Source of the DNA: an uncultured Verrucomicrobiota bacterium
Lineage (GTDB): Bacteria > Verrucomicrobiota > Verrucomicrobiia > Palsa-1439 > CAYGDP01
Direction: 5' to 3'
Assembly (NCBI GenBank): GCA_964348665.1
Contig: CAYGDP010000002.1
Location: 110,033-174,032, forward strand
Length of the DNA: 64,000 nt
Part shown: in pieces, positions 20,455 through 63,645 of the stretch
How positions within the stretch are numbered: the stretch's first letter is position 1
Layout: every line of letters begins with the position of its first letter
Made by a program: the position numbers and the translations under genes
The notes under the pieces: generated by a model
Told to the model about the DNA's origin: nothing
Database searches by the model: none
The model's input: only the letters and a program-made list of their open reading frames with translations

Positions 20455-20480
20455 AGGGAGAAGTGGGTCCCCCACTTTTT
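20455..20480 (+). terminator. hairpin plus T-run downstream of tRNA-Pro
   Basis: AAGTGGG-tcc-CCCACTT stem-loop (20461-20477) followed by TTTTT. Confidence 0.4.
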
Positions 20481-20517
20481 CCGTGACAAATCCGTGACAA
20501 ATTTGGTAGTGTCACGG
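20481..20517. promoter_or_regulatory. tandem direct repeats CCGTGACAAAT x2 plus an inverted half-site, candidate integrase arm-type sites
   Basis: 'ccgtgacaaat' at 20481-20491 and again at 20492-20502. An inverted 'gtcacgg' at 20511-20517. Lies between the tRNA 3' end and the integrase start. Confidence 0.35.
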
Positions 20518-20522
20518 GTGTT

Positions 20523-21743
20523 ATGAAGCGTTCCTTTCTTGTCAGCGTTGGTTCCGTTAAAGTCCCTGTTTACGGATTTTCCGGGGGACGGTGGTGCATT
20601 AGTTATTATCAGGAAGGACGGCGACGCCGAGAAACTCGATCTTCCCGTGATGAGGCTCTCCGCCGCGCCAAAGAGGTCGCCGCCGCAATCCACAACCAGA
20701 AAGCTTCTGGGATTGCGCTCACGGGTGCTGACCGTGACGCCTATATGCGCTCGCTGGAAGTGCTCAAACCCTTCGGCGTAAGTCTCCATGAAGCGGTGGA
20801 AACGTATGCGAAGACCAGAGCCAAACTCCAAGCCGTATCGCTCAACGACGTGGTGGATTTTTATCTACGCCACAATCCGACTCGCTTGCCTGCAAAAACC
20901 GTCTCGGAAGTTGCCCAGGAGCTACTGGCCGCCAAGCAACGTGATCACGTAAGCGCCGCCTATCTGAAAGACCTTCGATCACGGCTGCCTCGCATCGGTG
21001 CTGCCTTCGCAATGCCGATCGGGCGAGTGACGCAAGGACAAATCGAGGATTGGCTGCGCTCTTTGCCGAGTTCATTGCGGACACGAAACAATTATCGCAA
21101 CCTCATCGTTATGCTTTGGCGGTTCGCGCGCCAGCGCGGATATCTATTAAGGGATCGGTCCACGGAAGCCGATTCGTTGCCGCGCGCCAAAGACAAAGGA
21201 ACTGAGATCGAGATTTTCCGTCCAAAAGATTTTGCGAAACTGATCTACAAAGCCGATGCGAAATTGGTACCCTTCCTTACCATCGGGGCATTTACGGGTC
21301 TTCGTCACGCCGAGTTGCTTCGCCTTGAATGGGAAGACATTCGTTTTTCTCAGGGGTTTGTCGAAGTAAAAGCGAGTAAAGCAAAGACGGCACAACGGCG
21401 ACTGGTGCCCATCCAATCCAACTTGGCAGCATGGCTCTCACCGTATCGGGAGCGGAAAGGAAAAGTCTGCCCATGGATTCGCGTCGGTCGCACCGTATCA
21501 AAGTTGGCGAAAGATATTGGCATCCGTTGGCCGCAGAATGGTTTGCGGCATTCGTATGCGAGCTATCGCCTTGCTCAATGTCAGGACGCCGCAAAGGTCG
21601 CATTGGAGATGGGGAACACTCCACAGGTAGTTTTCCGTCATTATCGAGAACTGGTCATGCCGCAAGATGCAGCTGCGTGGTGGAGTATTGTCCCCGAGCG
21701 AGCGGCGAATGTGGTATCAATGAGACGTCACCAAATCGGCTAA
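20523..21743 (+). CDS. int: tyrosine-type site-specific integrase
   Basis: C-terminal catalytic motifs 'GLRHAELLRL', 'LRHSYASY', 'VVFRHYRELV' (R..H..R..Y). Begins 79 nt after the tRNA-Pro. Confidence 0.9.
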   Translation: MKRSFLVSVGSVKVPVYGFSGGRWCISYYQEGRRRRETRSSRDEALRRAKEVAAAIHNQKASGIALTGADRDAYMRSLEVLKPFGVSLHEAVETYAKTRAKLQAVSLNDVVDFYLRHNPTRLPAKTVSEVAQELLAAKQRDHVSAAYLKDLRSRLPRIGAAFAMPIGRVTQGQIEDWLRSLPSSLRTRNNYRNLIVMLWRFARQRGYLLRDRSTEADSLPRAKDKGTEIEIFRPKDFAKLIYKADAKLVPFLTIGAFTGLRHAELLRLEWEDIRFSQGFVEVKASKAKTAQRRLVPIQSNLAAWLSPYRERKGKVCPWIRVGRTVSKLAKDIGIRWPQNGLRHSYASYRLAQCQDAAKVALEMGNTPQVVFRHYRELVMPQDAAAWWSIVPERAANVVSMRRHQIG

Positions 21744-41399: not shown

Positions 41400-41601
41400 A
41401 AGGCGGCTTATGTCGGTAACACTATGGACATCGGTAGCACTCGATTTTTGGACATACGAGCCGGGCCATGGTCACAATGACAAATTTACCGAATTAAAAT
41501 CCGGTTCGTTGGATGCCCTCATAAGGTAAGGACAAAGAGCATGCAGCACATAAATGCAGAGTATCTTTGTAAAGATTAACCGTACTAAGGATAAAATAAG
41601 A

Positions 41602-42138
41602 ATGAATACGAATGATCCTTTCGGGAAAGTCATTTGGCAGGCTCAACAAGCGATAGACGACAGTGATTTCAATAAACTGAAAGACCTAATTGTTGAAAAC
41701 CTCTGGCTGAAAAATCCTTTGGAAGACACGGGGGGATCGCTCTTACACTACGCGGTAACGAACCGAAACCCTGGGGCTGTAGAATTCCTAATTTCCGAAG
41801 GTCTAGACGTAAACATGAAAGACCTAGAAAGTGTTAACACACCGCTCTTAATAGCGGTTGAAGAAGAAGACGCAGAAATAACAGAGTTACTCCTCCAGCT
41901 CGGCGCGGATGTAAACTGCCGAAATCCAAACGGGTGTACTCCTCTACACCTCGCAGCGAAGAGTGGGAATACTGAAATCGCAAAAATCCTGATTTTTTAC
42001 GAAGCGGATGTAAATGCTCGAGATATTTTCGACGGGTGGTCTCCCCTTGACTACGCGTTGGCAGAAGAACGATCAGGCGTTGCGGACATGCTTCGTAGGA
42101 GCGGGGCAAGACAGTTTGGCAAAGGGACCGACAAATGA
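41602..42138 (+). CDS. ankyrin-repeat protein, candidate immunity protein 1
   Basis: ATG at 41602 with RBS 'aagga'. Ankyrin repeats ('GGSLLHYAVTNRNPGAVEFLISEGLDVNMKD...', 'GCTPLHLAAKSGNTEIAKILIFYEADVN'). Immediately downstream of the RHS C-terminal module. Low GC. Confidence 0.7.
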   Translation: MNTNDPFGKVIWQAQQAIDDSDFNKLKDLIVENLWLKNPLEDTGGSLLHYAVTNRNPGAVEFLISEGLDVNMKDLESVNTPLLIAVEEEDAEITELLLQLGADVNCRNPNGCTPLHLAAKSGNTEIAKILIFYEADVNARDIFDGWSPLDYALAEERSGVADMLRRSGARQFGKGTDK

Positions 42139-42776
42139 GATTCCTGAAAAATTTTTTTGGATCGGTAAAAAAAACAGAGTCGCCGGCGGGTGGCACTGTT
42201 TTGGGGACGTTACTTCAAGCGAAGGAGGCGATTGACACGGAAAACGTTGTGACACTTGAGTCATTGTTGCGTAAACATCCCTCACTCGGCGAGGAACTTG
42301 ATGACTTGGGCTGGTCGCTATTGCATTATGCAGTGGCTCATTACAAGCTTCAGTCGATAGCGCGAATGCTCTCATGCGGATTGAACGTTAATATTTCCAC
42401 AAAGAATGGAAATTGTACGCCTTTGTTTTTTGCGTGTGCTGGGAATGGTCCAATAGAAATGGCACAACTGCTGATTGAACACGGAGCAGACGTTAATTGG
42501 AGAGACGAAGAAGGTGGAACAGCGCTTCATGCGGCAGCAAACCATAACCGAACAGACCTAATTACTCTTCTGATAGCAAAGGGATCTGAGGTAAATGTAA
42601 AAAGGAAGGCCGATGGATGGACTCCACTACATTGTGCAGATAATCTTGAGACGGTAAAGTTGCTCATAGAAAAAGGGGCAAATTCAGCAGCACGGGACAG
42701 GTGTCGACGCACGCGGATGGATATTGCAAGGGGAGCAAAGCAAAACGACATAGCCGAATTTTTGCAGAGATTGTAA
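42135..42776 (+). CDS. ankyrin-repeat protein, candidate immunity protein 2
   Basis: Start overlaps the previous stop (ATGA). Ankyrin repeats ('GWSLLHYAVAHYKLQSIARML', 'GNCTPLFFACAGNGPIEMAQLLIEHGADVN', 'GGTALHAAANHNRTDLITLLIAKGSEVN'). Confidence 0.7.
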   Translation: MRFLKNFFGSVKKTESPAGGTVLGTLLQAKEAIDTENVVTLESLLRKHPSLGEELDDLGWSLLHYAVAHYKLQSIARMLSCGLNVNISTKNGNCTPLFFACAGNGPIEMAQLLIEHGADVNWRDEEGGTALHAAANHNRTDLITLLIAKGSEVNVKRKADGWTPLHCADNLETVKLLIEKGANSAARDRCRRTRMDIARGAKQNDIAEFLQRL

Positions 42777-47807: not shown

Positions 47808-48950
47808 TTAGCGCGCAGTGGTTACCACTTTTCCACGAGTCTTTTGCTCAATCTGGTAAACTGTTTCTAGGTAGCTGCTCTGCATGGCGTTCATTCTATT
47901 TTCCAACCGCTGAATGGTTTCGTTCTTAATCTTCTCGGCTTGTTGGAGTTTAGTGAGCTCGTCTTTCAGGGTACCGATCTCGGTGTTGGTGAATTTGGTA
48001 TCGAGGTTCTTGTTTTCCATCCCCGCGCGTGAAATGTAGACGTCGGGCATGTTGCTGCTGAACCGCCATCCATAACGATAGCAAAGCTCTTGACGATTGA
48101 GTTGCGTTGCGTAGTGCGTCGCCGAGCTGTGGCGGAAGAGATGAGGATGGATTTCCTTTTTCAATATCTCATTGCCGAGCCTGCGTAGAAACATTCTCAT
48201 TCCTCCGTAGGTTGCCTTGAACACGGGATCGGTCGATTTGATTCCTTCGGCGATTCTCTCTTTGAGATATTCCCTGACGGCATCGAGGGAATGTCGCCAG
48301 TAGAGCGAAATCGTCCTGCCCTTGGTCTTGCTGTATTCCTCCTTGAGAGTGATTTTAACGAAATTATCTTTGCTCTCTGGCAAATGAACATCTTCGTAGC
48401 GGATATTGATAAATTCCTCTGCCCGCGCCCCTGAATCGAACAAAACAGCGATGATGAAGCGCTGTTCTGTCGTGCGACAGCCGCTGAATAACTTTTCCAC
48501 CTCTCGCTCAGAGAGATAATCTGGTGTCTTTTCCTTGTAGCGAGTGTCGAGCCAACCCACCAGTTTGATTGCTTTCACCTGCCCAAGTCGCCAGCGCATG
48601 AACACCTTGAACGCCTTTCGCAAATCGACTTTCGTAGAGTGAGAATAGGGAACTTTCTTGAGATGACTTCGGATTTTGTCCTGGCTCAGCGCTTTCTCGA
48701 ATTCTTCCACGTCCTTCAAGGTGATCTGCGCCGTCGGCTTGGCAAAGAATTGGAGCACGACCTTCAAGGAATCGAGATACCTCGCCCGTGAGGACTCCCC
48801 TACCTTTCGTCCCCGATTGATTCTTCCCAGTTCCAACTCCGAGATAAAACGCTGCACGTCTTTTTTGGTGGACTCAGGAACTTTCCACTTTACAACCCCC
48901 TTCAATTTTCCTGCTACCCCTTTGCCGTATGCTTGGATTTTGAGATTCAT
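47808..48950 (-). CDS. tyrosine-type site-specific recombinase/integrase (second copy)
   Basis: 'PHLFRHSSATHYATQ...LCYRYGW' catalytic region. N-terminal SAM-like and core-binding domains. Confidence 0.85.
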   Translation of the reverse strand: MNLKIQAYGKGVAGKLKGVVKWKVPESTKKDVQRFISELELGRINRGRKVGESSRARYLDSLKVVLQFFAKPTAQITLKDVEEFEKALSQDKIRSHLKKVPYSHSTKVDLRKAFKVFMRWRLGQVKAIKLVGWLDTRYKEKTPDYLSEREVEKLFSGCRTTEQRFIIAVLFDSGARAEEFINIRYEDVHLPESKDNFVKITLKEEYSKTKGRTISLYWRHSLDAVREYLKERIAEGIKSTDPVFKATYGGMRMFLRRLGNEILKKEIHPHLFRHSSATHYATQLNRQELCYRYGWRFSSNMPDVYISRAGMENKNLDTKFTNTEIGTLKDELTKLQQAEKIKNETIQRLENRMNAMQSSYLETVYQIEQKTRGKVVTTAR

Positions 48951-51041: not shown

Positions 51042-51383
51042 TCAGTCATACTTTTTGCGCAAGAAAATCCGATACGGGCGGTGTGTCTTGTTTCTGGCCG
51101 ACTGTGCGCGGTCGTAATAAACCAGCAGCTCGGAGTCTTTCGAGTCGAGCGGGACGGTATTGGCCAAAAAACGCAGGGCTAGGCCAACAGTGGAGGCACT
51201 GCGATTGCAGAGTTTCATGAGCCGTGAAAGGCTCAAAGGATACTGATAGCAAGACCGAGTACGATAGAGGATTTGGTAGTAAAAGACAATTTTTTGGTAA
51301 ACAAGCGCCAGAAGTTTCGCTTGCCGCTGATCGAGTTCCTCCACGATCCCCGACCTAATCCAAAGTCGCTTCTCCATTTCCAC
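51042..51383 (-). CDS. small helix-turn-helix-like protein
   Basis: 113 aa. 'LSRLMKLCNRSASTVGLALRFLAN' is HTH-like. Overlaps the end of the ATPase gene (same operon). Confidence 0.4.
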   Translation of the reverse strand: MEMEKRLWIRSGIVEELDQRQAKLLALVYQKIVFYYQILYRTRSCYQYPLSLSRLMKLCNRSASTVGLALRFLANTVPLDSKDSELLVYYDRAQSARNKTHRPYRIFLRKKYD

Positions 51384-52728
51384 CTCCCGCCAAAAAATCG
51401 TCTCCGACCGTTCCCTTCTTCACGGGCACGAGCGGAAACTTCACGTGAGAGGGCGAGATTCGGCCTTTGATTTTCACAATCCCTTCTCCCACGGCTAAAC
51501 GATCCAGAAATACCTCATCACCGAGCTCAAGAAAAAGAGCACGCTTGGCTGTCATGATGTCATCCTCGTGCTGCAATCCCAGATAAATCTGCGTGTTGGA
51601 ATTACCCAGCACATAGATCGGCAGCAGTGAAGGATGCTGAGTGATCGTGACCAATCCCTCGCCGAATCCACGGATTTCTCGGAAGACGTTTTCGAGGCTG
51701 TTGGACGCCTGTTTTTCAATATATGTCTTAGGAAAAAGATTGTGAACTTCCTCCAAGAAAGTGACGTGCCGCAAGCTTTCGGTCTCGCCCTGTCCCAAGC
51801 GATAGAGATGAATCCAGCGCAGGATGATGTCGCTAAAGAACACACGTAGCGGCTTGGGTAATTCTTGGTCGAGCTCGATGATGATGGGTTTTTCCAGAAG
51901 CTCTTCGAGCTTCAAGGGGTGTCTGGCATTAAACGCCCCACCCGAAGGGCCAAAGATAAAAGTTTTTAGGATTCTTGAACAACTATCCTGCCAGAGCATT
52001 CGACGCCCTCGGAAATGCAGGCGTTGTAGTTCCTCATTGGCGTCGAAGAAATTTGGATAACGCTCGAAAGTATTATCGTAGATTCCTGCTTTCTCGAACT
52101 CTTTGTCGAAAATCTCCATGAAAATATCCGCCACTCCCGGACCGGAAATGTGGGATTTCTCAAGCGCCTCAGCTACGACAGCAATCCAAGTTTTCGGATG
52201 AACACCGGGCGGAGCGCGCAGAGGATTCCAATTGAAAGAGGAAGCCGTTTTTCTACCAACAGAAAATATTTTCATCTCTTTCAGCTTCGGGTGCTCTAAA
52301 GTGAAAAGATCGCGATAGCTACGTTTCCAATCTACGACGAGAAAGGGGATGTCCCTTCCCAAGAGACCGAGCAAGAGAAGCTGTGCCACATTGGTTTTAC
52401 CGGCGCCTGTGATGGAAAAAATCCCAATATGCTTTAAGAAATTCTCTCGCGTCAGGTAGAGTGGATAGCAGGGCTTCTGATCATAAACGACCGTTCCAAG
52501 AAAAATCTCTCCCTTGGCAGCCTCGGCGGGCGGCGGGGGAAGCAGGATGGGCATTTTATCTACGGCTCCTCCCAAATGCTGCGCCGCGAAAATCTGTATC
52601 AACGACTCTGCTTCCCGCTTGGAATCGAGGGTCTCAGCCGTCGCGTAGCCCAGCCAGAGCATATCGGCTCGCTTGCCCACGATGGGTTTCAATTTCTTGC
52701 AAATGTCTTTAAGTTCACGATCCAGCAT
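51355..52728 (-). CDS. HerA/FtsK-superfamily (DUF87-like) P-loop ATPase
   Basis: Walker A 'FSITGAGKTNVAQLLL', Walker B 'IIIELDQE'. 457 aa. Confidence 0.7.
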   Translation of the reverse strand: MLDRELKDICKKLKPIVGKRADMLWLGYATAETLDSKREAESLIQIFAAQHLGGAVDKMPILLPPPPAEAAKGEIFLGTVVYDQKPCYPLYLTRENFLKHIGIFSITGAGKTNVAQLLLLGLLGRDIPFLVVDWKRSYRDLFTLEHPKLKEMKIFSVGRKTASSFNWNPLRAPPGVHPKTWIAVVAEALEKSHISGPGVADIFMEIFDKEFEKAGIYDNTFERYPNFFDANEELQRLHFRGRRMLWQDSCSRILKTFIFGPSGGAFNARHPLKLEELLEKPIIIELDQELPKPLRVFFSDIILRWIHLYRLGQGETESLRHVTFLEEVHNLFPKTYIEKQASNSLENVFREIRGFGEGLVTITQHPSLLPIYVLGNSNTQIYLGLQHEDDIMTAKRALFLELGDEVFLDRLAVGEGIVKIKGRISPSHVKFPLVPVKKGTVGDDFLAGGGNGEATLD

Positions 52729-53182
52729 GTTCGAGGAAAATCGCGCGGCCTTTGGACTGCTGATGGGTTTCCCAGATTTCCAGGAAATCCTTCATGACCA
52801 TCGCCACATCGCGCCAGCACTCGACCTCCTGTTGTCGACGCTCGGTCTGTAGATCGAAAAGCTGCTGATAAAATATGGATTTCTCGCTGTGTTCGCGAAG
52901 ATGGTAATTGGCAGCGTTATCGAGGCGATTTAGCATTTCTTGGACGGCTTCCTGCTGGGAATCCACACCTCGCAGATTGCGTCCCATCACATTCAATCGA
53001 ACCAGAATCTCTGCCGTGAGGACTTCCAGCTTGGTGTGGAGAAGCTTGGATTTCTGGTGGACGAGATTTTCTAAGTCAGATTCATCTAGGGAATCATTTT
53101 CGGGTTGCTGGGTTACATTGCTATACTGCGGTATACCGATTTCCGAAAGCCTTAAATAGGGTGATTTTTCCATGTTTTGCAC
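52715..53182 (-). CDS. coiled-coil hypothetical protein, first gene of the ATPase operon
   Basis: 155 aa, heptad-rich. Its stop overlaps the ATPase start. Confidence 0.45.
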   Translation of the reverse strand: MQNMEKSPYLRLSEIGIPQYSNVTQQPENDSLDESDLENLVHQKSKLLHTKLEVLTAEILVRLNVMGRNLRGVDSQQEAVQEMLNRLDNAANYHLREHSEKSIFYQQLFDLQTERRQQEVECWRDVAMVMKDFLEIWETHQQSKGRAIFLEHAGS

Positions 53183-53201
53183 TCCTAGGAGTACAAAAAC
53201 G

Positions 53202-53954
53202 ATGAATATAACTTCGTTCCCATCAAACAGTTCGGAAATTCAGCATCGGCGATTTTCCCAACCGATTGTATGCCAACTATTTTTATTGAAAATTGTGCGC
53301 CTCGCGATGGGCAAGCTCAACCAGCATCACCAATGGCTTATGCGAGGCAGTCAACGATGGGCAATCGCCGAAGTCTTGGTAAGACCCATGACTGGACTGG
53401 AAATCATGCGGGACTCTAGAAAACGCAATAGTCACATTCAAATGCCCGATGTTTTGTTTATCCTACACCAGCTCGAACAGAAGGGGCTGGCGTACTGCCT
53501 GAATCCGCAGCAAACGACTGGCAAGCTGTATTTTTGGACAAAGTTGGGAAGAGCAGTGATCTCAAAGCAATCTGGCCATATCCTTCGGGCCATCGACCGA
53601 AAAATCAATTGGAACCTCTACTCTTACATTGTACGCGCCAAAGTTCGACGCCGGGTGCTGCTGGAACTGTCAAAACTACAGGAAAACGAGGTGAAGGAGT
53701 TGACCACAACGAGAATCCGCAAATCCTTGAATACGAACTTTCCTATTGGACTGAATCCCACGATCCGAGCCCTGAAAGAGCTTTCGGATCTCATGCTGGT
53801 TCGGTGCGTCGGATTTACCGAGAAACGGAACCTGAAGATTTACCAATTGACGGAAATCGGCGAAAGAATCGCAGACAATTTACGTCAACCAGTCGTCGCT
53901 CTTGCTGTGGATAGGTCATCAGACCTGCGACAACCATTGGGAAAACCTTTTTAA
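53202..53954 (+). CDS. hypothetical protein with two winged-helix-like segments
   Basis: Divergent from the ATPase operon (the ORF track's start at 53172 overlaps it, ATG at 53202 does not). 'WAIAEVLVRPMTGLEIMR' and 'RVLLELSKLQENEVKELT' are wHTH-like. Confidence 0.4.
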   Translation: MNITSFPSNSSEIQHRRFSQPIVCQLFLLKIVRLAMGKLNQHHQWLMRGSQRWAIAEVLVRPMTGLEIMRDSRKRNSHIQMPDVLFILHQLEQKGLAYCLNPQQTTGKLYFWTKLGRAVISKQSGHILRAIDRKINWNLYSYIVRAKVRRRVLLELSKLQENEVKELTTTRIRKSLNTNFPIGLNPTIRALKELSDLMLVRCVGFTEKRNLKIYQLTEIGERIADNLRQPVVALAVDRSSDLRQPLGKPF

Positions 53955-55792: not shown

Positions 55793-55981
55793 TTTGAAGC
55801 AAGCCTAGAGCCTGACTTTTTCAAGTCAGCCGCTCTCTTGTTTCGCCTTTTCACGTTCTCACGTGAAAAGAACCTAGAAATGTCCAGCCAACCCACGGAA
55901 TCACCTGGGTTGTGTAGCTGGGCGTTTAACCACGATCGTTTTGCATTTGTGCAGAGCGATCGCAATCGAAAGGAGAAAACC

Positions 55982-56344
55982 ATGAACGTATGTACTCTCT
56001 CCGGGAAACTCGTGGATAATGCCGTGGTCAATGGAGCAGAATTCAAAGCTCTGTTTTTCACGGTGCTCACGAAGTACGGATACAACACAACGGAGAAGAA
56101 GGATCGCGTGGCGTATGTACCCTGCGTCATGTGGAATCCAAACCAGGAGATTGAAAAACTCCTCGTCGAAAACGGCAAAGGCCTATGGATCGAAGTCGAA
56201 GGTAGGGTCGCTCGTTCCAGTTATGAAGAGAACGGTCAGCGTAAATTCAACACTGAAGTCGTTGTGAAGAATCGGACGTTGAACGTGCTCAAGAGAAACG
56301 GAACGGGACACGGTGAGTCTATCGAGAAAGGAGCATCGCAATGA
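55982..56344 (+). CDS. SSB-like OB-fold protein 1
   Basis: ATG at 55982 with RBS 'aaaggagaaaac'. 'MNVCTLSGKLV...LWIEVEGRVARSSYEENGQRKFNTEVVVKN' parallels SSB 'IEGRL..R.W.D..G.KR..TEIVV'. No acidic C-terminal tail. Confidence 0.6.
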   Translation: MNVCTLSGKLVDNAVVNGAEFKALFFTVLTKYGYNTTEKKDRVAYVPCVMWNPNQEIEKLLVENGKGLWIEVEGRVARSSYEENGQRKFNTEVVVKNRTLNVLKRNGTGHGESIEKGASQ

Positions 56345-56694
56345 ACGTGTGTATCCTTTCTGGATGGCTCATGAACAACGCCCTCGCTCCAAAAACAGAA
56401 TCCCATGCCTTGTTTTTTACCTTGGTCACAAAATTCGGGTATGACAAGGCGGCTAGGAGGAATCTGATTACTGGTGTGCGGTGCGTGATGTTCGATCCGT
56501 CGCCTGAGATCGAGAAACTGCTGGTTGAGAAGGGAAAGAAGCTGGCAGTGGAAACAGAGGGTTACGTTCGCTTTTGGCGCTACAATGCCAAGGGCGGGTG
56601 TAAACTCGAAGCGGAAGTTGTCGTCAAAAACGACAGCTTTACGGTGTGGAGGCGGTTTCAAGGTCGAGCTTCCCAGAAAGGAGGCTCGCCATGA
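56341..56694 (+). CDS. SSB-like OB-fold protein 2 (paralog of the upstream gene)
   Basis: Start overlaps the upstream stop (ATGA). 'MNVCILSGWLM...LAVETEGYVRFWRYNAKGGCKLEAEVVVKN'. Confidence 0.6.
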   Translation: MNVCILSGWLMNNALAPKTESHALFFTLVTKFGYDKAARRNLITGVRCVMFDPSPEIEKLLVEKGKKLAVETEGYVRFWRYNAKGGCKLEAEVVVKNDSFTVWRRFQGRASQKGGSP

Positions 56695-57152
56695 ATGCGC
56701 TAGCGCAGCCCAAGGAATACAAAGTAGTTGCCTTGCGGGAATGCCCAACACCGATGGAACTGCAATCGTGCGATTGCCCTAGCAAAGCAGCCGAGTATTG
56801 GAATCGGAACGTCATCACGGCGTCTTATTTCAATCCCGACTGCGAGTGCTTTGTAGTGGTGATGCTCAATACCAAGAACCGCGTCAAAGGCCATTATTTG
56901 GTTTCATTTGGCACAGTTAACGCGAGCTTGGTACACGCTCGGGAAGTATTTCGAGCGGCCATCATTGCAGGTTCGACGAGCGTCTTGCTGATGCACAATC
57001 ACCCCAGCGGTGATCCGACACCTTCAAGCGAGGATGTCCGCATCACCAAGCAACTGGTTCAAGCAGGCAAGATTCTCGGCATTGAAGTCATGGACCACGT
57101 GATTGTCGGTTATGACAAGCACGTTTCACTTAAGGAGTTGGGACTGTTGTAA
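56691..57152 (+). CDS. RadC-like JAB-domain (DUF2466) protein
   Basis: RBS 'aaaggagg'. 'LLMHNHPSGDPTPSSEDVRITKQL...GIEVMDHVIV' is the JAMM/RadC signature. Confidence 0.85.
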   Translation: MNALAQPKEYKVVALRECPTPMELQSCDCPSKAAEYWNRNVITASYFNPDCECFVVVMLNTKNRVKGHYLVSFGTVNASLVHAREVFRAAIIAGSTSVLLMHNHPSGDPTPSSEDVRITKQLVQAGKILGIEVMDHVIVGYDKHVSLKELGLL

Positions 57153-57171: not shown

Positions 57172-57203
57172 CGCTGCTCTCTTAGCGGAGAGCGGCTTTT
57201 TTT
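57172..57203 (+). terminator. rho-independent terminator after the RadC-like gene
   Basis: GC-rich hairpin 'gctgctct...agagcggc' followed by TTTTTTT. Confidence 0.5.
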
Positions 57204-57232
57204 GTTTAACCCAAAAAAGAAAGGAGAACTAT

Positions 57233-57736
57233 ATGGGAGCTGATCTTTACATTGTGGAGATTAGCCTGCCAATCCAAGAGTGGTATGAGCCGCTCTTTGA
57301 TAAGGCGGTAAGGCAAAGAAATCTCTGGCCGAAAGGTTCAGAGAGGGAGCAGAAAGCGCACAAGGACGTGGTGAGATATTACAACCTGATGCACGCAGCG
57401 GGATATTTCAGCGATCCTTATGACGCGAGCAGTTTGCTCAAACATCTCGGACTCTCTTGGTGGTCGGACGTCCTGCCCCTGTGCGACCAAGACCGTCGTC
57501 TTGAAGACGAAAGCTTGAGGAAGTTCCGCGCAATGGTAGGGCGCAATCCCGTGCAGTATCCGACCGAGGAAGAGTTCAAGAAAGAACTGGTAGCTCTGGA
57601 AGACGGCAGGAAAAGTCTGGATGCATGGTGCAGATACTTCGCAGCGAAGCACATGACGCTGATGTTGTTTCTGGACCAGGCACTTTTGCTGGATGCCGCC
57701 GTGCATTGCTCCTTTGGAATTCCTGACGGAAGATAG
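57233..57736 (+). CDS. hypothetical protein, 'MGADLYI' family paralog A
   Basis: RBS 'aaaggaga'. 167 aa. Shares 'MGADLYI..L.....YKPLF(D/E)KAV.QR...P.......K.......Y..L....GYF.D.Y...LLK.LGLSWW..V.PL' with the gene at 58514. Confidence 0.55.
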   Translation: MGADLYIVEISLPIQEWYEPLFDKAVRQRNLWPKGSEREQKAHKDVVRYYNLMHAAGYFSDPYDASSLLKHLGLSWWSDVLPLCDQDRRLEDESLRKFRAMVGRNPVQYPTEEEFKKELVALEDGRKSLDAWCRYFAAKHMTLMLFLDQALLLDAAVHCSFGIPDGR

Positions 57737-57850
57737 GGCAACGCTGGGAAGCGACCTGAGCGCCGGCAGGACTGTCACGCCAATGCGGCAAGACAACCTG
57801 CTCCTCGTCTTTCACGGCGGGGAGCAGGTCTGTTTTTCCGTCGCTGGCAT

Positions 57851-57936
57851 CGGAATAAACCCCGGAATTAACCCGGAATAAAGCCAGAATAAACCCGGAA
57901 TTAAGTTTATTCCGGTCTATTCCGAGGAATAAATCC
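57851..57936. repeat. iteron-like array of eight GGAATWAA units (six direct, two inverted) at 10-11 bp phasing
   Basis: 'cGGAATAAAccccGGAATTAAcccGGAATAAAgccaGAATAAAcccGGAATTAAgTTTATTCCggtctATTCCgaGGAATAAAtcc'. Confidence 0.55.
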
Positions 57937-58038
57937 TTCTGTTTGGCACCGCGCTTCCTTACGGGGATGCGACTGCTGGGCAGAATCGCTCGGTATCAGC
58001 CGCGGATCGCAGCGGCAATTCAAGAAGGAGAAACAACC

Positions 58039-58443
58039 ATGAATACAGTAGAGAAGTTGCAGTGTACCCAAGACCCGCTCTCGGTCTATGAAGAAACCGC
58101 GAGAGCTTATGCGGATTGTACAATCGGCGGAAAGGAAGGGGGAAAGTTGCGGAATCTGAATTTCCGCGCTTCCGCTCCTTTGCGCCTGCTCGAATGGATG
58201 GAGTGCATGAAACGCGCTACTCCTGAAGGATACAACCAGTTCAACGCCGTACGAGTCGGACGGGTTCTGGCGCAACTCGGCGTTAGTCTGGATGCGGTGT
58301 TCATTCCCGCTCGGGAGTACAGCGTTTGCGTTTATGTACGGGCCGATGGATGGCTCTTGCAACATATCCTCAACAACGCTGCCGCTCTGCAGGCCGATGA
58401 AGCCGATATCGTGGACGGCGAGTTGCGTTTGTGGTGGGATTAA
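58039..58443 (+). CDS. hypothetical protein
   Basis: ATG at 58039 with RBS 'aaggag'. 134 aa, no motif. Confidence 0.45.
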   Translation: MNTVEKLQCTQDPLSVYEETARAYADCTIGGKEGGKLRNLNFRASAPLRLLEWMECMKRATPEGYNQFNAVRVGRVLAQLGVSLDAVFIPAREYSVCVYVRADGWLLQHILNNAAALQADEADIVDGELRLWWD

Positions 58444-58513
58444 ATGGAGGGTCGCGCAATGCGGCCTCCTCCCACTTTTAATCATCAACAATCGAAAGAA
58501 AGGAGACGTGTGT

Positions 58514-59002
58514 ATGGGTGCAGACCTCTATATCCATCAGCTCTACGATCCGACGAAAGAAAGGTATAAGCCGCTTTTTGAAAAAGCGGTAATGCAGAGG
58601 GATTCATTTCCACGAGATTCGAAGGAATGGAAAGTGGCCCAACGGAAAGTCTGGAAGTACTTCGACCTGATGAATTCCAAGGGCTACTTCCGCGATTCGT
58701 ATAGCACGGCAAACGTGCTTCGGACGCTGGGTTTATCGTGGTGGCGAAATGTGATCCCCCTGCTTAACAAAAAGAACGAACTGGAAGGCAAGAACCTGAA
58801 AAAGTTCCGCAAGATGGTAGCCAATGCAAAACAACGTCTGCCAACGAAAGCGGAGCTTCAGAAAGATGGAGCGCGTGGAAAACGATCGGGAGCAAACCGT
58901 TTGAAGATGTGGCGCAAGTATTACATCAGGAAACGAGCGCGACTCATCGCGTTTCTCGACGAGGCGATCAAACGGAATCACTCGATCCACTGCTCGCTCT
59001 GA
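58514..59002 (+). CDS. hypothetical protein, 'MGADLYI' family paralog B
   Basis: ATG at 58514 with RBS 'aaaggagacg'. Colinear with paralog A over the first 100 aa or so. Basic C-terminal tail. Confidence 0.55.
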   Translation: MGADLYIHQLYDPTKERYKPLFEKAVMQRDSFPRDSKEWKVAQRKVWKYFDLMNSKGYFRDSYSTANVLRTLGLSWWRNVIPLLNKKNELEGKNLKKFRKMVANAKQRLPTKAELQKDGARGKRSGANRLKMWRKYYIRKRARLIAFLDEAIKRNHSIHCSL

Positions 59003-59125
59003 CTGAAAAAACTGGCGTGCGGCTTCGCTTACACGCGCGGCCGCATGACAGAACAGAAACGGGTTTTGTGGAATCCCCCGCAAACCCGAAAAAACCAACA
59101 AACCCCAAAAGAAAGGAACATCAAC

Positions 59126-60202
59126 ATGAAGAATGAAAGTATCACGTTGTATTACCGTGAAGGTTCATCGGACAAAGTTTATCAAGCGGCCATTGAAGAA
59201 AAGAACGGCGGGTTCGTCGTTAACTTCGCCTTTGGCCGTCGGGGCAGCACGTTACAGACGGGGACGAAAACAGCATCACCTGTAAGCTTCGAGGAAGCAA
59301 AGCGGGTCTATGACAAACTGGTAGCTTCCAAGGTCGGAAAGGGTTACACACCGGGCGCAGACGGGACTCCTTACGCGCAAACCGAAGAAGCAGGACGCGT
59401 AAGCGGGTTTCTGCCGCAGTTGTGTAATCCAGTCAGAGAGGACGAGGTTGCGTGCATCCTCCCTGACAAAAGCTATTGGATGGAAGAAAAGTTCGACGGA
59501 AAGCGCATGTTGCTTCGCAAAGAAGGACAGAACGTTGTCGGCATCAATCGGAAGGGTCTGGTTGTTGCATTGCCGCAGCCGTTGATTATGGCAGCGCAAA
59601 AGTATGACGAGAGCTTCCTGCTCGATGGCGAATGCGTCGGAGAGACGCTTCACGTCTTCGACTTGCTCCTCCTGAACGGCGAGAAAATGGTAGGTCTCGC
59701 GATGTGTGAACGGCGACACACATTGGAGGAGCTGCTGCAGATTGACGATCCGCACTTGTTGCTCGTTGAGACAGAGAAATCGGTGGCGGGAAAGGCTGAG
59801 AAGTTTACCTACTTCAAAGCCATGCGAAAAGAAGGCGTCGTGTTCAAGCGATACAACGCCCCTTACGCTCCAGGACGGCCTGCCAATGGTAGCGGATGGT
59901 TCAAGCACAAATTCGTCACAAGTGGATCGTTCATAGTGAGCCGTGTGAACGCCGATCGCCGCAGCGTCGGTCTTGAAGTATTCGAGGAGAGAAAACGCAT
60001 CGGAGTCGGCAATGTCACGATACCCGTTAACGCCGAAGTGCCAATAGTAGGCGACATCATCGAGGTACGTTACCTCTACGCCTATCGTGGTGGGAGTCTG
60101 TTTCAACCCGTGTATCTGGGACCGCGAGATGATCTCTCGTTGCTCGATTGCACGGTGCGAGAGTTGAAGTATCGCGCAGAAGATAGTGAAGAAGAGGCAT
60201 AA
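59126..60202 (+). CDS. WGR-domain / ATP-dependent DNA ligase fusion protein
   Basis: ATG at 59126 with RBS 'aaaggaa'. N-terminal WGR-like domain ('ITLYYREGSSDKVYQA...FAFGRRGSTLQTG...EEAKRVYDKLVASKVGKGY'). Ligase motifs: I 'EEKFDGKR', III 'LLDGE', IV 'EGVVFKR', V 'GWFKHKF', VI 'PVYLGPRDD'. Confidence 0.85.
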   Translation: MKNESITLYYREGSSDKVYQAAIEEKNGGFVVNFAFGRRGSTLQTGTKTASPVSFEEAKRVYDKLVASKVGKGYTPGADGTPYAQTEEAGRVSGFLPQLCNPVREDEVACILPDKSYWMEEKFDGKRMLLRKEGQNVVGINRKGLVVALPQPLIMAAQKYDESFLLDGECVGETLHVFDLLLLNGEKMVGLAMCERRHTLEELLQIDDPHLLLVETEKSVAGKAEKFTYFKAMRKEGVVFKRYNAPYAPGRPANGSGWFKHKFVTSGSFIVSRVNADRRSVGLEVFEERKRIGVGNVTIPVNAEVPIVGDIIEVRYLYAYRGGSLFQPVYLGPRDDLSLLDCTVRELKYRAEDSEEEA

Positions 60203-60301
60203 GCCTTTTTCTTCTGGGATTAGGTCGAGACGCCGTGCCCTGCGGCGTCCGATCTACTTCTCATCTAAAAAATCAGAAATCCAAAACAGAAAGGAAAATG
60301 T

Positions 60302-60697
60302 ATGTGCATCAATTGGAAAATAATTCACAAGTACACTCGTGCTGATGCAATCAGAGACGGAGTGCTTGTGGACTTGCGACAGGGAGAGTTGGCAGAGGTC
60401 GTTGAGAATGCCGGGATCAAAGTTCCAGTGGCAATGACGCGTACTGCATTCGAGCGTTATGTTTCACTAACGCAAGCAGCACAGGAAGCGGGCAACGACA
60501 TAAAGGGTCGGCTCTGGGACATCCTTTGGATGTATCGGTGCGCCGCGCAGAAGAATCCTCATGAAAGCGTGATGTGCTTTTCATTCTACTGCGTCGTGGA
60601 TCAGCCTAAGCCGAAAAAGTGCGAGATCAAGGTAATAGTCGGTCCAGGAGACGATCCTGCGCCCGTATTGACGTTCCTGCTACCCAAAGAAGATTGA
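60302..60697 (+). CDS. hypothetical protein
   Basis: 131 aa, in the same operon between the ligase and ArdC-like genes. Confidence 0.4.
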   Translation: MCINWKIIHKYTRADAIRDGVLVDLRQGELAEVVENAGIKVPVAMTRTAFERYVSLTQAAQEAGNDIKGRLWDILWMYRCAAQKNPHESVMCFSFYCVVDQPKPKKCEIKVIVGPGDDPAPVLTFLLPKED

Positions 60698-60777
60698 GCG
60701 CTAGGCGGCTTAGCTTTCATGCAAGGCCCGGCGGTCATTCAAAATTCAGAAAAAAATCAAACCGAAAGGAAAATACC

Positions 60778-61668
60778 ATGAACAAAGTGTATGAAATTGT
60801 CACGCAACGTATCATCAATGCGTTGGAACAAGGAGAAATCCCGTGGCGACCGCGATTCAGCGTTGACAAAGGCTTGCCACGCAACGCCGTCTCGAAAAAG
60901 CCCTATCGGGGCGTTAATCTCCTGTTGCTCTGGCTTGCTAGATATCAGGACAATCGCTTCCTGACGTTTAAGCAAGCAAAGGAAATGGGCGGGGAAGTAA
61001 AGAAGGGAGAGCACGGTTGGCCGGTAATCTTTTGGAAACTCCAAGAGATAGACGAAACCATCCCAAGCACGGGAGAGTTAAAGCAAGTTCCTGTGTTGAG
61101 ATACTACACCGTGTTCAATGTATCGCAGTGCAGTGGATTGGGCTTGCCAAAGATTATTGAGGTGAGTGAGTTCACGCCTATTGAAATGGGCGAGCGCATT
61201 CTCCTCGGCTATCCCAATCCGCCCTGCGTCTTCTATGGAAAAGGCTGCGGTTGTTATCGGCCGTCCGATGACATTGTGGAGATGCCGCGCCCTGAAACGT
61301 TCCAGAAAAATGAGCACTACTACTCCGTGCTTTTCCACGAGCTAGTGCATAGCACAGGACACGCGAAGCGGCTAAATCGCGAGGAAATAGCCACGCCAAA
61401 GAAATTCGGCAGCGAGCCGTACTCACGCGAGGAACTCGTCGCCGAACTTGGTTCTGCGTTTCTCTGTGCGGAGTGCGGAATCGAGCAAGACACGTTGGAG
61501 GATCATGCCGCCTACATTCAAGGTTGGCTCAAGCGACTCAAAGATGATTCGCGTTTGATCGTGTTGGCTGCTGCCGCTGCACAGCGCGCCGCTGATCACA
61601 TTCTTGCGCGGACCTTTGAGTCAGTGGAAAGCTCCGCTGAAACTGCCGCGCCAATGCTCGTATCGTAA
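60778..61668 (+). CDS. ardC: ArdC-like antirestriction protein (N-terminal ssDNA-binding DUF1738-like + C-terminal zincin metallopeptidase)
   Basis: ATG at 60778 with RBS 'aaaggaaaa'. 'IPWRPRFS...PYRGVNLLLLW' N-domain and HExxH 'FHELVHSTGH' C-domain. Confidence 0.8.
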   Translation: MNKVYEIVTQRIINALEQGEIPWRPRFSVDKGLPRNAVSKKPYRGVNLLLLWLARYQDNRFLTFKQAKEMGGEVKKGEHGWPVIFWKLQEIDETIPSTGELKQVPVLRYYTVFNVSQCSGLGLPKIIEVSEFTPIEMGERILLGYPNPPCVFYGKGCGCYRPSDDIVEMPRPETFQKNEHYYSVLFHELVHSTGHAKRLNREEIATPKKFGSEPYSREELVAELGSAFLCAECGIEQDTLEDHAAYIQGWLKRLKDDSRLIVLAAAAAQRAADHILARTFESVESSAETAAPMLVS

Positions 61669-62001: not shown

Positions 62002-63645
62002 TCATTTTTTTCTCCGTGCCGGTCTTTTACCGGAACGAACCAAAGCAAGCCGCTGTTTTTTAAGCGCCATGTGAAATTCGTAATCTTCGCTTGCTTCGCG
62101 CAAGATGTAAGATTGATGCGCTAAACGATCAGGATACCTCGGAAGTGCCTCTTGCTTGCGCTTAGCCCAAGTAATGATTTCGCCTTGCTCTTTTCTCGGA
62201 AGCATTGGGAATAGGTCGAAGTATCGCCGAGAGGAAATACCTGAGAATTGCTTGAAGTGAACAAATCTCGAAAGAGGTTCACTGTCATCGACATCAACTT
62301 TTATCGAGTCAGAATGGTGCTCTTGTGCAAAACTTTTTGGATAAGGTTCCGTATAGATCACCTGACGGATTCCAGCCGCAACGATATGCCTGGCACAAAC
62401 GTGGCAGGGAAAGGTCGTGGTGTATAACGTAGCTCCGTCTACTCGAACTCCGCGCCGTGCCGCATCCATTAACGCGGCCATCTCCGCATGCACCGTACGT
62501 GCAAACTCCCCTACCTGCATAAGTGTTCCATCCCCAATTAAACTTAGAATTTCTTGTTCTTTATTCTTCTTAAATGTTTTGGCATTTAAATCCAAGATTC
62601 CTTTGTGGAGCAGTCTCTTTTTATAAAACTTTTCTAACAACTCAAAGAGCCCGGTTTTTTTAACAGTAGTGCCAACATCTGCCCCCAGACGGAAATCACG
62701 GGCATCGCCTTCGTCGCCATTCCAATATTGACCTCCACCGGCTTTGGGTACTTCGTTTGTTCCAACTGATATTATTGATCCATCAGGATCCACAATGGCT
62801 GCCCCAACTTGGCGTGATAAATCTGCAGAACGGAACGCAGCAGACTGGGCAAAAAACATTCCATACTCCTGCCTCGATGGAGAATGGCTCGGATGACGGA
62901 ACAGAAGTTGAACGTATCTTTGAACCGAGATGCGCATTTCCTCAGGATCTCCTACATCTACGAATAGGTCAGCTTTAGAAAATGTGTCGCGCATATTCTG
63001 GCCGAAATCAGCGTATTCTTCTTTTTCATCGCGTTGAATTAACGATTGGGCGATCGGGCGGGACCGATCAGATCTCGGATCCCGTTTTGAATCTGCGATC
63101 CGTTTCGCGAGTCTTAGAACCCTGGACTCCCGTGGTGAGTACGCTGAGATCAAATGAAAGGCATCGCAGTATACCTGTCGGAGGAGTCTTGCCTCATCCG
63201 GATGCTTCAAAGATCTAAGTAGGAATGCAAGATTCGGTACGGGCTTATTCTCGTATTTCCAAAAATCCCTTGGGCCCTTCGGTTGAGGCGGAGGAATTGG
63301 CCTCTTAAATCTTTTCCTCCAGTAAGAGTATCGAATGTCGCGTATCTGATTTATGGCAACAAGTGCCAAGGCATCTCCGCGCTTAAGGGTTTTCCTTAGT
63401 TTATTGCCTGCGTCCATGTGTAAAGTGATCCTTGTATCCTCAGGACTAAGCGGGAGATTCTTCCACTTCCGGAATTGATGCAATAATTCAGCGAGATGTA
63501 TCTCCTGGGTCTTATATCCTACTTCGGAGAGCGAATCTGTAATGGCTTGAGAAACCTCCGTGAGGCCGGCACCTAACGGACCGGCTAAAGCGAAGAATAA
63601 CTCTGGTCTCTCTGACGTGCTGATTTGTTTTTGTTTGAATTCCAT
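62002..63645 (-). CDS. nucleotide-kinase-like + CMP/dCMP-deaminase-domain protein, resembling anti-phage dCTP deaminase (DCD) defence proteins
   Basis: ATG at 63645 with RBS 'gaaagga'. N-terminal P-loop-like 'FFALAGPLGAGLTEV'. C-terminal zinc-deaminase 'HAEMAALMDAARRG...TFPCHVCARHIVAAGIRQVIY' (H-A-E ... P-C-x-x-C). Confidence 0.6.
   Translation of the reverse strand: MEFKQKQISTSERPELFFALAGPLGAGLTEVSQAITDSLSEVGYKTQEIHLAELLHQFRKWKNLPLSPEDTRITLHMDAGNKLRKTLKRGDALALVAINQIRDIRYSYWRKRFKRPIPPPQPKGPRDFWKYENKPVPNLAFLLRSLKHPDEARLLRQVYCDAFHLISAYSPRESRVLRLAKRIADSKRDPRSDRSRPIAQSLIQRDEKEEYADFGQNMRDTFSKADLFVDVGDPEEMRISVQRYVQLLFRHPSHSPSRQEYGMFFAQSAAFRSADLSRQVGAAIVDPDGSIISVGTNEVPKAGGGQYWNGDEGDARDFRLGADVGTTVKKTGLFELLEKFYKKRLLHKGILDLNAKTFKKNKEQEILSLIGDGTLMQVGEFARTVHAEMAALMDAARRGVRVDGATLYTTTFPCHVCARHIVAAGIRQVIYTEPYPKSFAQEHHSDSIKVDVDDSEPLSRFVHFKQFSGISSRRYFDLFPMLPRKEQGEIITWAKRKQEALPRYPDRLAHQSYILREASEDYEFHMALKKQRLALVRSGKRPARRKK

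What the first reader, a model, noticed from the sequence alone, without database searches (positions are those of the whole stretch)
57851..57936. Array of eight GGAATWAA units with helical (10-11 bp) phasing inside the operon
Six direct and two inverted copies are packed into 86 nt between two genes. Phasing near one helical turn is characteristic of iterons or cooperative regulator binding (replication or transfer origin, or a repressor operator). Its location within a leading-region-like operon makes an ori or single-strand initiation site plausible.
Basis: seen in the sequence. Interest (0 to 1): 0.55.

Follow-up and report, generated by a model that had tools for sequence, protein, structure and literature searches.

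The report
Phased GGAATWAA protein-binding repeat array
A real, non-random block of eight short DNA repeats, one per helical turn, sits between a terminator and the next gene in a mobile element's establishment/anti-defence gene row; it is most likely a docking array for a cooperative DNA-binding regulator, which is a known kind of element, and not a replication origin.

Summary
Eight CGGAATWAA-type units lie at 57851-57936: six exact and two with one mismatch. Their order is five direct, two inverted, one direct, spaced 12, 11, 11, 11, 9, 10 and 10 bp. No other 8-mer in the 64-kb window clusters this densely.

The array sits just after a strong intrinsic terminator that closes gene X, and about 100 bp before gene Y, which has a good ribosome-binding site. 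The gene row reads SSB-SSB-RadC-X | Y-X'-WGR ligase-DUF6573-ArdC.

One related metagenomic locus, L130, keeps both terminators around its X homologue. It carries three GGAATWAA-type units immediately after the second terminator (p about 7e-4). This points to a selected binding motif that has expanded in the window.

Nothing supports an origin. There is no Rep gene, DnaA box or AT-rich unwinding region, and the single-strand hairpin potential is weak and ambiguous.

My best reading is a multi-site operator, possibly doubling as a centromere-like site, coated cooperatively by an unidentified regulator that controls the Y-to-ArdC unit. It resembles R388 stbDRs and p576 Reg operators. No binder and no promoter were identified. 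Confidence is about 0.45, and the finding is of moderate to low interest.

The parts
57173..57206 (+). Terminator-like hairpin plus T-run after RadC
   Evidence: 10-pair stem, 6 GC pairs, followed by TTTTTTTGTT. A counterpart lies upstream of the X homologue in L130 (822-851).
57233..57736 (+). Gene X (167 aa), an unannotated family and a paralogue of X'
   Evidence: 40% identity to X'. A profile search finds 906 representative clusters. The AF2 model has pLDDT 85.7 with no PDB or BFVD fold match.
57796..57840 (+). Strong intrinsic-terminator-like hairpin (14 pairs, 9 GC) plus CTGTTTTTCC, closing gene X
   Evidence: I1. Conserved in L130 at 1385-1415.
57851..57905 (.). Five tandem direct units (CGGAATAAACCC, CGGAATTAACC, CGGAATAAAGC, CAGAATAAACC, CGGAATTAAG), period 12/11/11/11
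57906..57924 (.). Two inverted units (TTTATTCCG, TCTATTCCG), 10 bp apart. The first forms a convergent palindrome with direct unit 5 (CCGGAAT-N7-ATTCCGG).
   Evidence: (I8, D4).
57925..57936 (.). Last direct unit (AGGAATAAATCC). With the preceding inverted unit it forms the divergent palindrome TCTATTCC-GA-GGAATAAA, the arrangement also seen in L130 (TTAATTCC-C-GGAATAGA).
   Evidence: (I10).
57937..57984 (+). Imperfect hairpin directly 3' of the array, containing a sigma-54-like TGGCAC-N5-TTCC (57944-57958). Significance is uncertain.
   Evidence: fold; one mismatch at the conserved -12 G; 6 window matches against 5 expected by chance.
58025..58443 (+). AAGGAG ribosome-binding site (58025-58030) and gene Y (58039-58443, 134 aa), the first gene downstream of the array
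   Evidence: Only 4 homologues found. AF2 pLDDT 86.8, no PDB fold match.
58514..61668 (+). Rest of the downstream unit: X' (58514-59002), WGR/ATP-dependent DNA ligase (59126-60202), DUF6573 (60302-60697), ArdC (60778-61668)
53202..53954 (+). Double winged-helix protein (weak PadR and EarA-like hits). It is the only recognisable DNA-binding candidate in the gene row and is not shown to bind the array.
   Evidence: Its homologues sit in a conserved HerA/DUF87 + ~153-aa + wHTH trio without arrays.

Best explanation
The array is a multi-site protein-binding operator. A small dimeric or oligomerising DNA-binding protein, of ribbon-helix-helix or (winged) helix-turn-helix type and encoded by the element or the host but not yet identified, recognises the ~9-bp core CGGAATWAA. 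There is one core per helical turn and no gaps, so bound proteins touch their neighbours and coat about 85 bp cooperatively along one face of the DNA. The inverted units at the 3' end supply the dyad sites (convergent and divergent pairs) where binding probably nucleates. The coated segment fills the space between the terminator of gene X and the leader of gene Y, so it controls transcription entering or starting at the Y-X'-ligase-DUF6573-ArdC unit. I favour repression (negative feedback or transient expression of establishment and anti-defence genes) over activation, at roughly 60:40. The same nucleoprotein complex could also act as a centromere-like handle for the excised element.

Shown: the array, its statistics, its position, and recurrence of the motif in a relative.

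Inferred: that a protein binds it, which protein, the sign of regulation, and that a promoter lies here.
For: - Clustering is far beyond chance, and this is the densest short-repeat cluster in the window.
- Spacing of 9-12 bp is contiguous across all eight units, and orientations are mixed. Simple slippage does not produce mixed orientation.
- GAAT is invariant in all 8 units and the full 9-bp core carries only 3 mismatches, all outside GAAT.
- Position: terminator 57796-57840, array 57851-57936, then 102 bp to a gene with an AAGGAG site. In relative L187 the equivalent spot (terminator after the X homologue) holds a consensus TTGACA-N17-TATAAC promoter, repeated before the next gene. This is where a promoter and operator are expected.
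- In L130, whose X homologue is 52% identical to X' and 41% to X, both terminators are conserved. Directly after the second one come TTAATTCC-C-GGAATAGA and then TTGATTCC, giving 3 units in 60 bp. Only 13 of 20000 shuffles of that intergenic region reach this. The rest of the spacer does not align.
- Known precedents exist in the same functional setting. R388 stbDRs are two sets of five 9-bp repeats spaced by 2 nt around the stb promoter, bound by StbA, and serve as operator and segregation site (PMC3098194). ArdK binds direct and inverted repeats at establishment promoters (PMC9723621). The ribbon-helix-helix protein Reg has operators flanking the ardC and other establishment promoters of p576 (PMC8708921).
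Against: - No binding protein is identified. X, Y and X' have confident models with no DNA-binding fold match, and no RHH or HTH domain was detected in the nine small or unannotated ORFs of 49.2-62 kb that were scanned.
- No promoter is recognisable. The sigma-70 scan finds nothing on the + strand here, and the sigma-54-like match is imperfect and not above chance.
- The motif occurs nowhere else in the window or in L001, whereas regulators of establishment regions usually have several operators.
- The array is absent from other relatives (L188, L187, L138 and 48 viral loci). Only one locus supports conservation.
- Near-identical copies from other samples could not be compared for copy-number variation.
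Confidence: 0.45

Rival explanations
1. The array is mainly a centromere-like or segregation site (parC, stbDR or omega-site type). The coated array forms a partition complex that tethers or segregates the excised circular element, and any transcriptional effect is secondary.
For: The architecture matches known centromeres built from contiguous short repeats at about one helical turn. R388 stbDRs have an 11-bp period in sets of five (PMC3098194). From my own knowledge, not re-read here, R1 parC has ten 11-bp iterons and pSM19035 omega has direct and inverted heptads. There is a single copy per element. Drift of about 11.25 bp per unit would wrap the DNA superhelically.
Against: No ParA, ParM, TubZ or adaptor gene lies next to the array or in the window genes scanned. 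The element is integrated (integrases at 20523 and 47808), so segregation would matter only transiently. Relative L130 has only 3-4 units.
Confidence: 0.12
2. The array is a positive upstream element. Either it holds tandem sites for an activator (winged-helix response-regulator style, as in pho boxes at 11-bp period, or enhancer sites for a sigma-54 activator), or it is protein-independent phased A/T-tract DNA acting like an UP element or bend for a promoter just downstream.
For: Five head-to-tail repeats at 11 bp sit immediately upstream of a region lacking a -35 box. TGGCAC-N5-TTCC lies 10 bp after the array. Unrelated phage contigs carry 3-6 GGAATTA or GGAATAAA units at 11-bp period directly abutting TTGAAA-type -35 boxes (L190/L223, L204). 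Predicted curvature over the direct repeats is at the 95th percentile of the window (a rough wedge model with parameters entered from memory).
Against: The sigma-54 match has the conserved -12 G replaced, is not above chance, and is not conserved in L130 or L188. No enhancer-binding protein or response regulator was seen among the scanned genes. Curvature is unexceptional: ten other sites in the window bend more. The inverted units are not expected for head-to-tail activators.
Confidence: 0.13
3. The array is an origin-type site: iterons of a replication origin, a single-strand initiation or ssDNA-promoter element of a conjugative leading region, an oriT accessory site, or a clt-like site for the element's HerA/FtsK-type ATPase.
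For: The gene context looks like a leading region (SSB x2, RadC, ArdC, ligase). Direct repeats can be read as three 22-nt super-units of 82-86% identity (D2). A HerA/DUF87 ATPase and a double winged-helix protein are encoded 4-6 kb upstream. The whole 302-nt spacer folds better than shuffles (z about -4).
Against: No Rep, relaxase or T4SS gene was found among the genes scanned in the window, nor in the Pfam-labelled gene calls of L001 (to about 68.4 kb in window coordinates). There are no DnaA or IHF sites and no AT-rich unwinding element, and the flanks are 60-67% GC. The fold signal comes from the terminator and a leader hairpin; the array alone gives z -1.8 and -2.3 with many competing pairings and no hairpin-embedded -35/-10. 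Elements sharing the HerA + wHTH trio have no such array. There is no Rfam match.
Confidence: 0.08
4. The array is a functionless, or no longer functional, tandem expansion. An ancestral single palindromic site or chance sequence was amplified by replication slippage and local inversion, and the array is evolutionarily transient.
For: The array is unique to this lineage: 8 units here against 3-4 in L130 and none in L188, L187 or L138. The five direct units are contiguous 11-mers, as slippage would give. Unrelated genomes carry many tandem repeats with similar units, several of them in repeat stretches that look protein-coding.
Against: The copies have diverged (82% matches) yet keep GAAT in all 8. 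Inverted units are interleaved at helical spacing. The motif recurs at the orthologous position in L130 while the surrounding spacer is unalignable. The placement is regulatory.
Confidence: 0.15

Closest known systems
stbDRs of IncW plasmid R388 (StbA-binding direct repeats)
   Same: Both are contiguous short repeats with an 11-bp period in sets of five. Both lie at a promoter in the establishment/leading part of a mobile element that also carries ssb and ardC. The stbDRs serve as both operator and segregation site (PMC3098194).
   Different: The sequences differ (TTGCATCAT against CGGAATWAA). The stbDRs are all direct, lie upstream of the gene for their own binding protein and next to oriT, and have extra copies in other promoters. 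Here no StbA-like gene, oriT or second site was found, and two units are inverted.
Reg (ribbon-helix-helix) operators of p576 and ArdK/KorA-family operators at establishment-gene promoters
   Same: These are repressor sites built from direct and/or inverted repeats that flank or overlap promoters of ardC-type establishment genes, giving transient expression after transfer (PMC8708921, PMC9723621).
   Different: Those operators have two half-sites per promoter and are repeated at several promoters. Here eight units sit at one place, and no Reg, ArdK or KorA homologue was detected.
parC of plasmid R1 (ParR) and omega-repressor heptad arrays of pSM19035 (my own knowledge, not re-read here)
   Same: Many contiguous units (11-bp iterons, or 7-bp heptads in direct and inverted orientation) are coated cooperatively by a ribbon-helix-helix dimer. 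They act as promoter operator and centromere together.
   Different: Those arrays lie directly upstream of the par or omega genes that encode the binder and a partner ATPase. No such genes are near this array.
Pho boxes and OmpR/PhoB-family tandem sites (my own knowledge)
   Same: Head-to-tail direct repeats with a 10-11-bp period replace a -35 element and are bound by winged-helix domains.
   Different: They act as activators, usually with 2-6 repeats all in one orientation, and belong to host regulons. Here there are inverted units and no identified response regulator.
Iteron origins (Rep_3 type) and F-type ssDNA promoters (Frpo)
   Same: Both involve repeats or inverted repeats in non-coding DNA of mobile elements, and Frpo elements precede leading-region ssb and anti-defence genes (PMC11541004).
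   Different: Iterons are 17-22 bp, adjacent to rep, DnaA boxes and an AT-rich region. Frpo is a long defined hairpin carrying -35/-10 boxes. None of these features is present here.

Membership tests
Contiguous short-repeat operator/centromere arrays (stbDR, parC or omega-site kind) | At least 4 contiguous short units at about one helical turn (or 7 bp), direct and/or inverted | tested here: met
   8 units spaced 9-12 bp, in the order 5 direct, 2 inverted, 1 direct.
Contiguous short-repeat operator/centromere arrays (stbDR, parC or omega-site kind) | The array overlaps or flanks a promoter | tested here: inconclusive
   It lies between a terminator and a gene with an RBS, and L187 has a consensus promoter at the same spot. 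No promoter is recognisable in the window itself.
Contiguous short-repeat operator/centromere arrays (stbDR, parC or omega-site kind) | The cognate small DNA-binding protein (RHH or HTH) is encoded next to the array | tested here: not met
   The neighbours X, Y and X' have no Pfam, PHROG, PDB or BFVD DNA-binding match. The nearest candidate is a double wHTH 4 kb upstream.
Contiguous short-repeat operator/centromere arrays (stbDR, parC or omega-site kind) | Specific cooperative binding of the protein to the repeats | not testable with these tools
   Needs EMSA, footprinting or DAP-seq.
Iteron-type replication origin | Iterons of 17-22 bp (about two helical turns) in tandem | tested here: not met
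   The unit is 11 bp. 22-nt super-units reach only 82-86% identity and do not alternate consistently.
Iteron-type replication origin | Adjacent initiator (rep) gene | tested here: not met
   No Rep family hit among genes from 49 to 62 kb.
Iteron-type replication origin | DnaA boxes and an AT-rich unwinding element beside the repeats | tested here: not met
   No DnaA box with up to one mismatch in 57300-58500. The flanks are 33-47% A+T.
ssDNA promoter / single-strand initiation site of leading regions (Frpo/ssi) | A long, well-defined hairpin in one strand that reconstitutes -35/-10 boxes | tested here: not met
   The array folds at -14 to -16 kcal/mol, z -1.8 and -2.3, with MFE frequency below 0.4%. 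No boxes were found.
ssDNA promoter / single-strand initiation site of leading regions (Frpo/ssi) | Located upstream of leading-region ssb or anti-defence genes, on the transferred strand | tested here: inconclusive
   The gene content fits, but no oriT or relaxase was found, so the transferred strand and the 'leading' status are unknown.
oriT | A relaxase gene and nick region nearby | tested here: not met
   No relaxase or T4SS domain in the window genes scanned or in the L001 gene table.
Sigma-54 promoter with upstream activator sites | -24 GG / -12 GC promoter at correct spacing | tested here: inconclusive
   TGGCAC-N5-TTCC at 57944 has C in place of the -12-region G. There are 6 window matches against 5.0 expected. 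It is not conserved in L130 or L188.
Sigma-54 promoter with upstream activator sites | A cognate AAA+ enhancer-binding protein | not tested
   None appeared among the genes scanned, but neither the host genome nor the rest of the 246-kb contig was available.

The most novel reading that the evidence does not exclude
The array may be the cis site of an undescribed system. One option is that the widespread, unannotated X-family protein, the only gene shared by the two motif-bearing loci, binds it. The other is that it is a clt-like loading or recognition site for the element's HerA/FtsK-type ATPase plus double winged-helix module, marking where double-stranded transfer or segregation of this integrative element begins.
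Probability: 0.07. Interest if true: 0.65.

Novelty: new member of a known kind. Interest (0 to 1): 0.3.

Why it matters
If the array is an operator, it marks a control point that splits an establishment/anti-defence gene row (SSB, RadC | ligase, DUF6573, ArdC). The element is an integrative one from an uncultivated bacterium. Regulation of such rows is known only for a few model plasmids. The array offers a clean, easily synthesised bait for fishing out the regulator, which is 8 sites in 85 bp. It would also help annotate X, Y and X', which belong to unannotated families; the X family has at least 906 sequence clusters. In itself it does not change current understanding, because phased repeat arrays bound by cooperative regulators are well known in mobile elements.

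Tried and rejected
- **Pattern scan of 185,579 species genomes for two adjacent units.** The 120 loci returned were mostly single chance matches or unrelated tandem repeats. The Verrucomicrobiales array L048 lies at the end of an unrelated chromosomal gene.
- **Three-unit pattern in IMG/VR.** The 35 hits are AT-rich viral tandem repeats, several inside repeat stretches that look protein-coding, and are not homologous.
- **Y homologues.** Only four exist, sitting among small leading-region-like genes, with no arrays.
- **Word-index search for X.** It gave only two homologues. The profile search then showed a large family, but 48 viral loci and L138, L187 and L188 lack arrays next to the gene.
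- **Ligase relatives in metagenomes.** They are not syntenic.
- **Elements sharing the wHTH + HerA trio.** None has an array, so the wHTH protein cannot be tied to the array.
- **Structure prediction and fold search of X and Y.** The models are confident but have no matches, so there is no evidence for or against DNA binding.
- **PHROGs, PADLOC, PDB sequence searches, PLSDB plasmids and GenBank phages.** Nothing was found for X, Y, X' or the spacer.
- **Rfam.** Nothing relevant.
- **Intrinsic curvature.** Only the 95th percentile, so it is rejected as a sufficient explanation.
- **Host taxonomy.** It could not be established: cluster look-up returned no names. The host promoter consensus is therefore unknown.
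- **Copy-number polymorphism.** It could not be assessed. The exact 62-aa ORF across units 1-3 is on 4 contigs and Y on 5, but near-identical places are collapsed by the tool.

Full report
**1. The observation**

The sequence at 57851-57936 reads CGGAATAAACCC CGGAATTAACC CGGAATAAAGC CAGAATAAACC CGGAATTAAG TTTATTCCGG TCTATTCCG AGGAATAAATCC. GGAATWAA has seven exact matches in the 64-kb window, and six of them lie within 82 bp here.

With one mismatch allowed there are eight units. Six are direct (57852, 57864, 57875, 57886, 57897, 57926) and two are inverted (57906, 57916). No other 90-bp stretch of the window has more than two, and 200 composition-preserving block shuffles never exceeded four.

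Tandem Repeats Finder reports period 11 and 4.5 copies. A motif-free scan of every 8-mer ranks this array first in the window, with 8 units against 5 for the runner-up.

Two qualifications apply: two units are degenerate, and the array is not inside an uninterrupted operon.

**2. Anatomy and surroundings**

The + strand carries these genes:
- a double winged-helix gene (53202-53954)
- two methyltransferase-fold genes
- SSB (55982-56344) and an SSB-like gene (56341-56694)
- RadC (56646-57152)
- X (57233-57736)
- Y (58039-58443)
- X' (58514-59002), 40% identical to X
- a WGR/ATP-dependent ligase, DUF6573 and ArdC (to 61668)

Terminator-like hairpins with T-runs follow RadC (57173-57206) and X (57796-57840; 14 pairs, 9 of them G-C). 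The array starts 10 bp after the second T-run. It ends 102 bp before the ATG of Y, which has an AAGGAG site 8 nt upstream.

The window also holds tRNA-Pro followed by an integrase (20370-21743), a second integrase (47808-48950) and a HerA/DUF87 ATPase. Defence-type genes lie downstream on the other strand. The setting is therefore an integrated mobile element whose gene row resembles the establishment/anti-defence (leading) regions of conjugative elements. No relaxase, T4SS or Rep gene was seen.

**3. Comparative evidence**

The window comes from a metagenome contig (ENA ERZ27247820, 246 kb). Close relatives are scarce:
- Y has four distant homologues, none with an array.
- X looked rare by word-index search, but a profile search shows a large unannotated family of 906 representative clusters.
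- Forty-eight viral-contig loci, plus L138, L187 and L188, have no array beside the gene.

The informative relative is L130, whose X homologue is 52% identical to X'. It keeps counterparts of both terminators. Directly after the second one it has TTAATTCC-C-GGAATAGA, and 42 bp further on TTGATTCC. That is three units within 60 bp, which 13 of 20000 shuffles of that spacer reach. The divergent pair mirrors the window's TCTATTCC-GA-GGAATAAA. The rest of the spacer does not align.

In L187 the same position holds a consensus sigma-70 promoter, repeated before the next gene. In L188 it holds a different palindrome. The spot after the X terminator is therefore a regulatory spacer in this family. 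The GGAAT motif is conserved in one sister lineage, and the window's array is an expansion of it.

**4. Tests of the origin ideas**

- No DnaA box (one mismatch allowed) or IHF consensus lies in 57300-58500, and the flanks are GC-rich, so there is no unwinding element.
- No initiator gene is adjacent.
- The array as single-stranded DNA folds at -14 to -16 kcal/mol, with z -1.8 and -2.3 and negligible MFE frequency, meaning many competing pairings.
- The better z-score of the whole spacer (about -4) comes from the terminator and a leader hairpin at 57937-57984.
- Rfam gives nothing.
- Elements that share the HerA + ~153-aa + wHTH trio have no such array within 10 kb.

**5. Who binds, and where is the promoter?**

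Neither question could be settled.

AF2 models of X (pLDDT 85.7) and Y (86.8) have no significant PDB or BFVD matches. Nine small or unannotated ORFs of the 49.2-62 kb part of the element show no RHH or HTH domain. The only recognisable DNA-binding candidate is the double winged-helix protein 4 kb upstream.

No sigma-70-like promoter is detected on the + strand. Such matches are not enriched in this genome segment anyway, and the host is unknown.

A sigma-54-like TGGCAC-N5-TTCC lies 10 bp after the array. However, it has the conserved -12 G replaced, it is no more frequent than chance, and it is not conserved in the relatives.

Predicted intrinsic curvature is only at the 95th percentile (rough model).

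**6. Interpretation**

The most economical reading is a cooperative protein-binding array that acts as an operator for the Y-to-ArdC unit. It might also serve as a centromere-like site.

The precedents are close in both architecture and setting:
- R388 stbDRs: five plus five 9-bp repeats spaced by 2 nt, bound by StbA, acting as operator and segregation site (PMC3098194).
- ArdK/KorA operators: direct or inverted repeats at establishment promoters (PMC9723621).
- Reg (RHH) operators flanking ardC promoters in p576 (PMC8708921).
- From general knowledge: R1 parC, omega heptads and pho boxes.

The array fails the membership feature 'binder encoded alongside', and binding itself cannot be tested here. 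I therefore describe it as working like these arrays, not as a member of any named system.

The rivals keep appreciable weight:
- an activator or UP-like element
- a partition site as the main role
- an origin-type site
- a neutral expansion

**7. Verdict**

The feature is real, and it is probably a regulatory protein-binding array. It is a new instance of a known kind, in a poorly known element. Interest is moderate to low unless the binder proves to be one of the unannotated families.

Noticed in passing
window 20370-21743: tRNA-Pro(CGG) is followed by a tyrosine integrase. Between them lie TCCGTGACAAA x2 at 11-bp period (20480-20502) and an inverted TGTCACGG (~20511-20518), which look like arm sites or an operator. 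No repeat of the tRNA 3' end was found elsewhere in the window, so the island's far end lies beyond 64 kb or is degenerate.
   Followed up: partly
window 22866-41399: A single 6177-aa ORF follows the first integrase, and two ankyrin-repeat genes follow it (41554-42776). Their function was not examined.
   Followed up: no
window 55848-55869: A perfect palindrome, TTTTCACGT-N4-ACGTGAAAA, lies upstream of the first SSB gene, just after a terminator-like hairpin. Its half-sites resemble parS (from memory). It may be a second, different operator of the same gene row.
   Followed up: no
window 57233-57736 and 58514-59002 (X, X'): Paralogous ~165-aa proteins share the motifs MGADLYI, GYFRDSYN, LSWW and HCSL. 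They have no Pfam, PHROG, PADLOC, PDB or BFVD match, yet a profile search finds 906 representative clusters, and 48 IMG/VR loci encode relatives. This is a widespread unannotated family of mobile elements and phages.
   Followed up: partly
window 51355-53954; L134 6698-10579; L136 7668-10213: A conserved trio recurs in unrelated contigs with different, often defence-type, cargo: a DUF87/HerA-like ATPase (~459 aa), a ~153-aa protein, and a divergently transcribed PadR-like winged-helix protein (double PadR + EarA-like in the window copy). It looks like the core of an undescribed element or system.
   Followed up: partly
window 57937-57984: An imperfect hairpin directly after the array contains a sigma-54-like TGGCAC-N5-TTCC (57944-57958). 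The match is not statistically distinguishable from chance.
   Followed up: partly
L188 2962-3183; L130 from 1619: In two relatives the gene after the X homologue encodes a ~73-aa protein (MKNITVKYGVDSITKQ...). Just upstream of its RBS, both relatives have a CA-rich leader (ACAACAAACAAA...AGAAAGG). A similar leader precedes the ligase gene in the window (59080-59125).
   Followed up: no
L190 7686-7715 (= L223 6013-6042); L204 48-77: Unrelated low-GC viral contigs carry 3-6 GGAATTA or GGAATAAA units at 11-bp period directly abutting a TTGAAA -35-like box and TATAAT-like -10. This looks like a convergent 'phased repeat upstream of a promoter' architecture.
   Followed up: no
window 62002-63645 (- strand) and L001 13964-20405: Downstream on the opposite strand is a run of defence-type genes: a deaminase-domain protein, PD-(D/E)XK, nucleoside 2-deoxyribosyltransferase, SIR2, DUF6884/GIY-YIG and QueC.
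   Followed up: no
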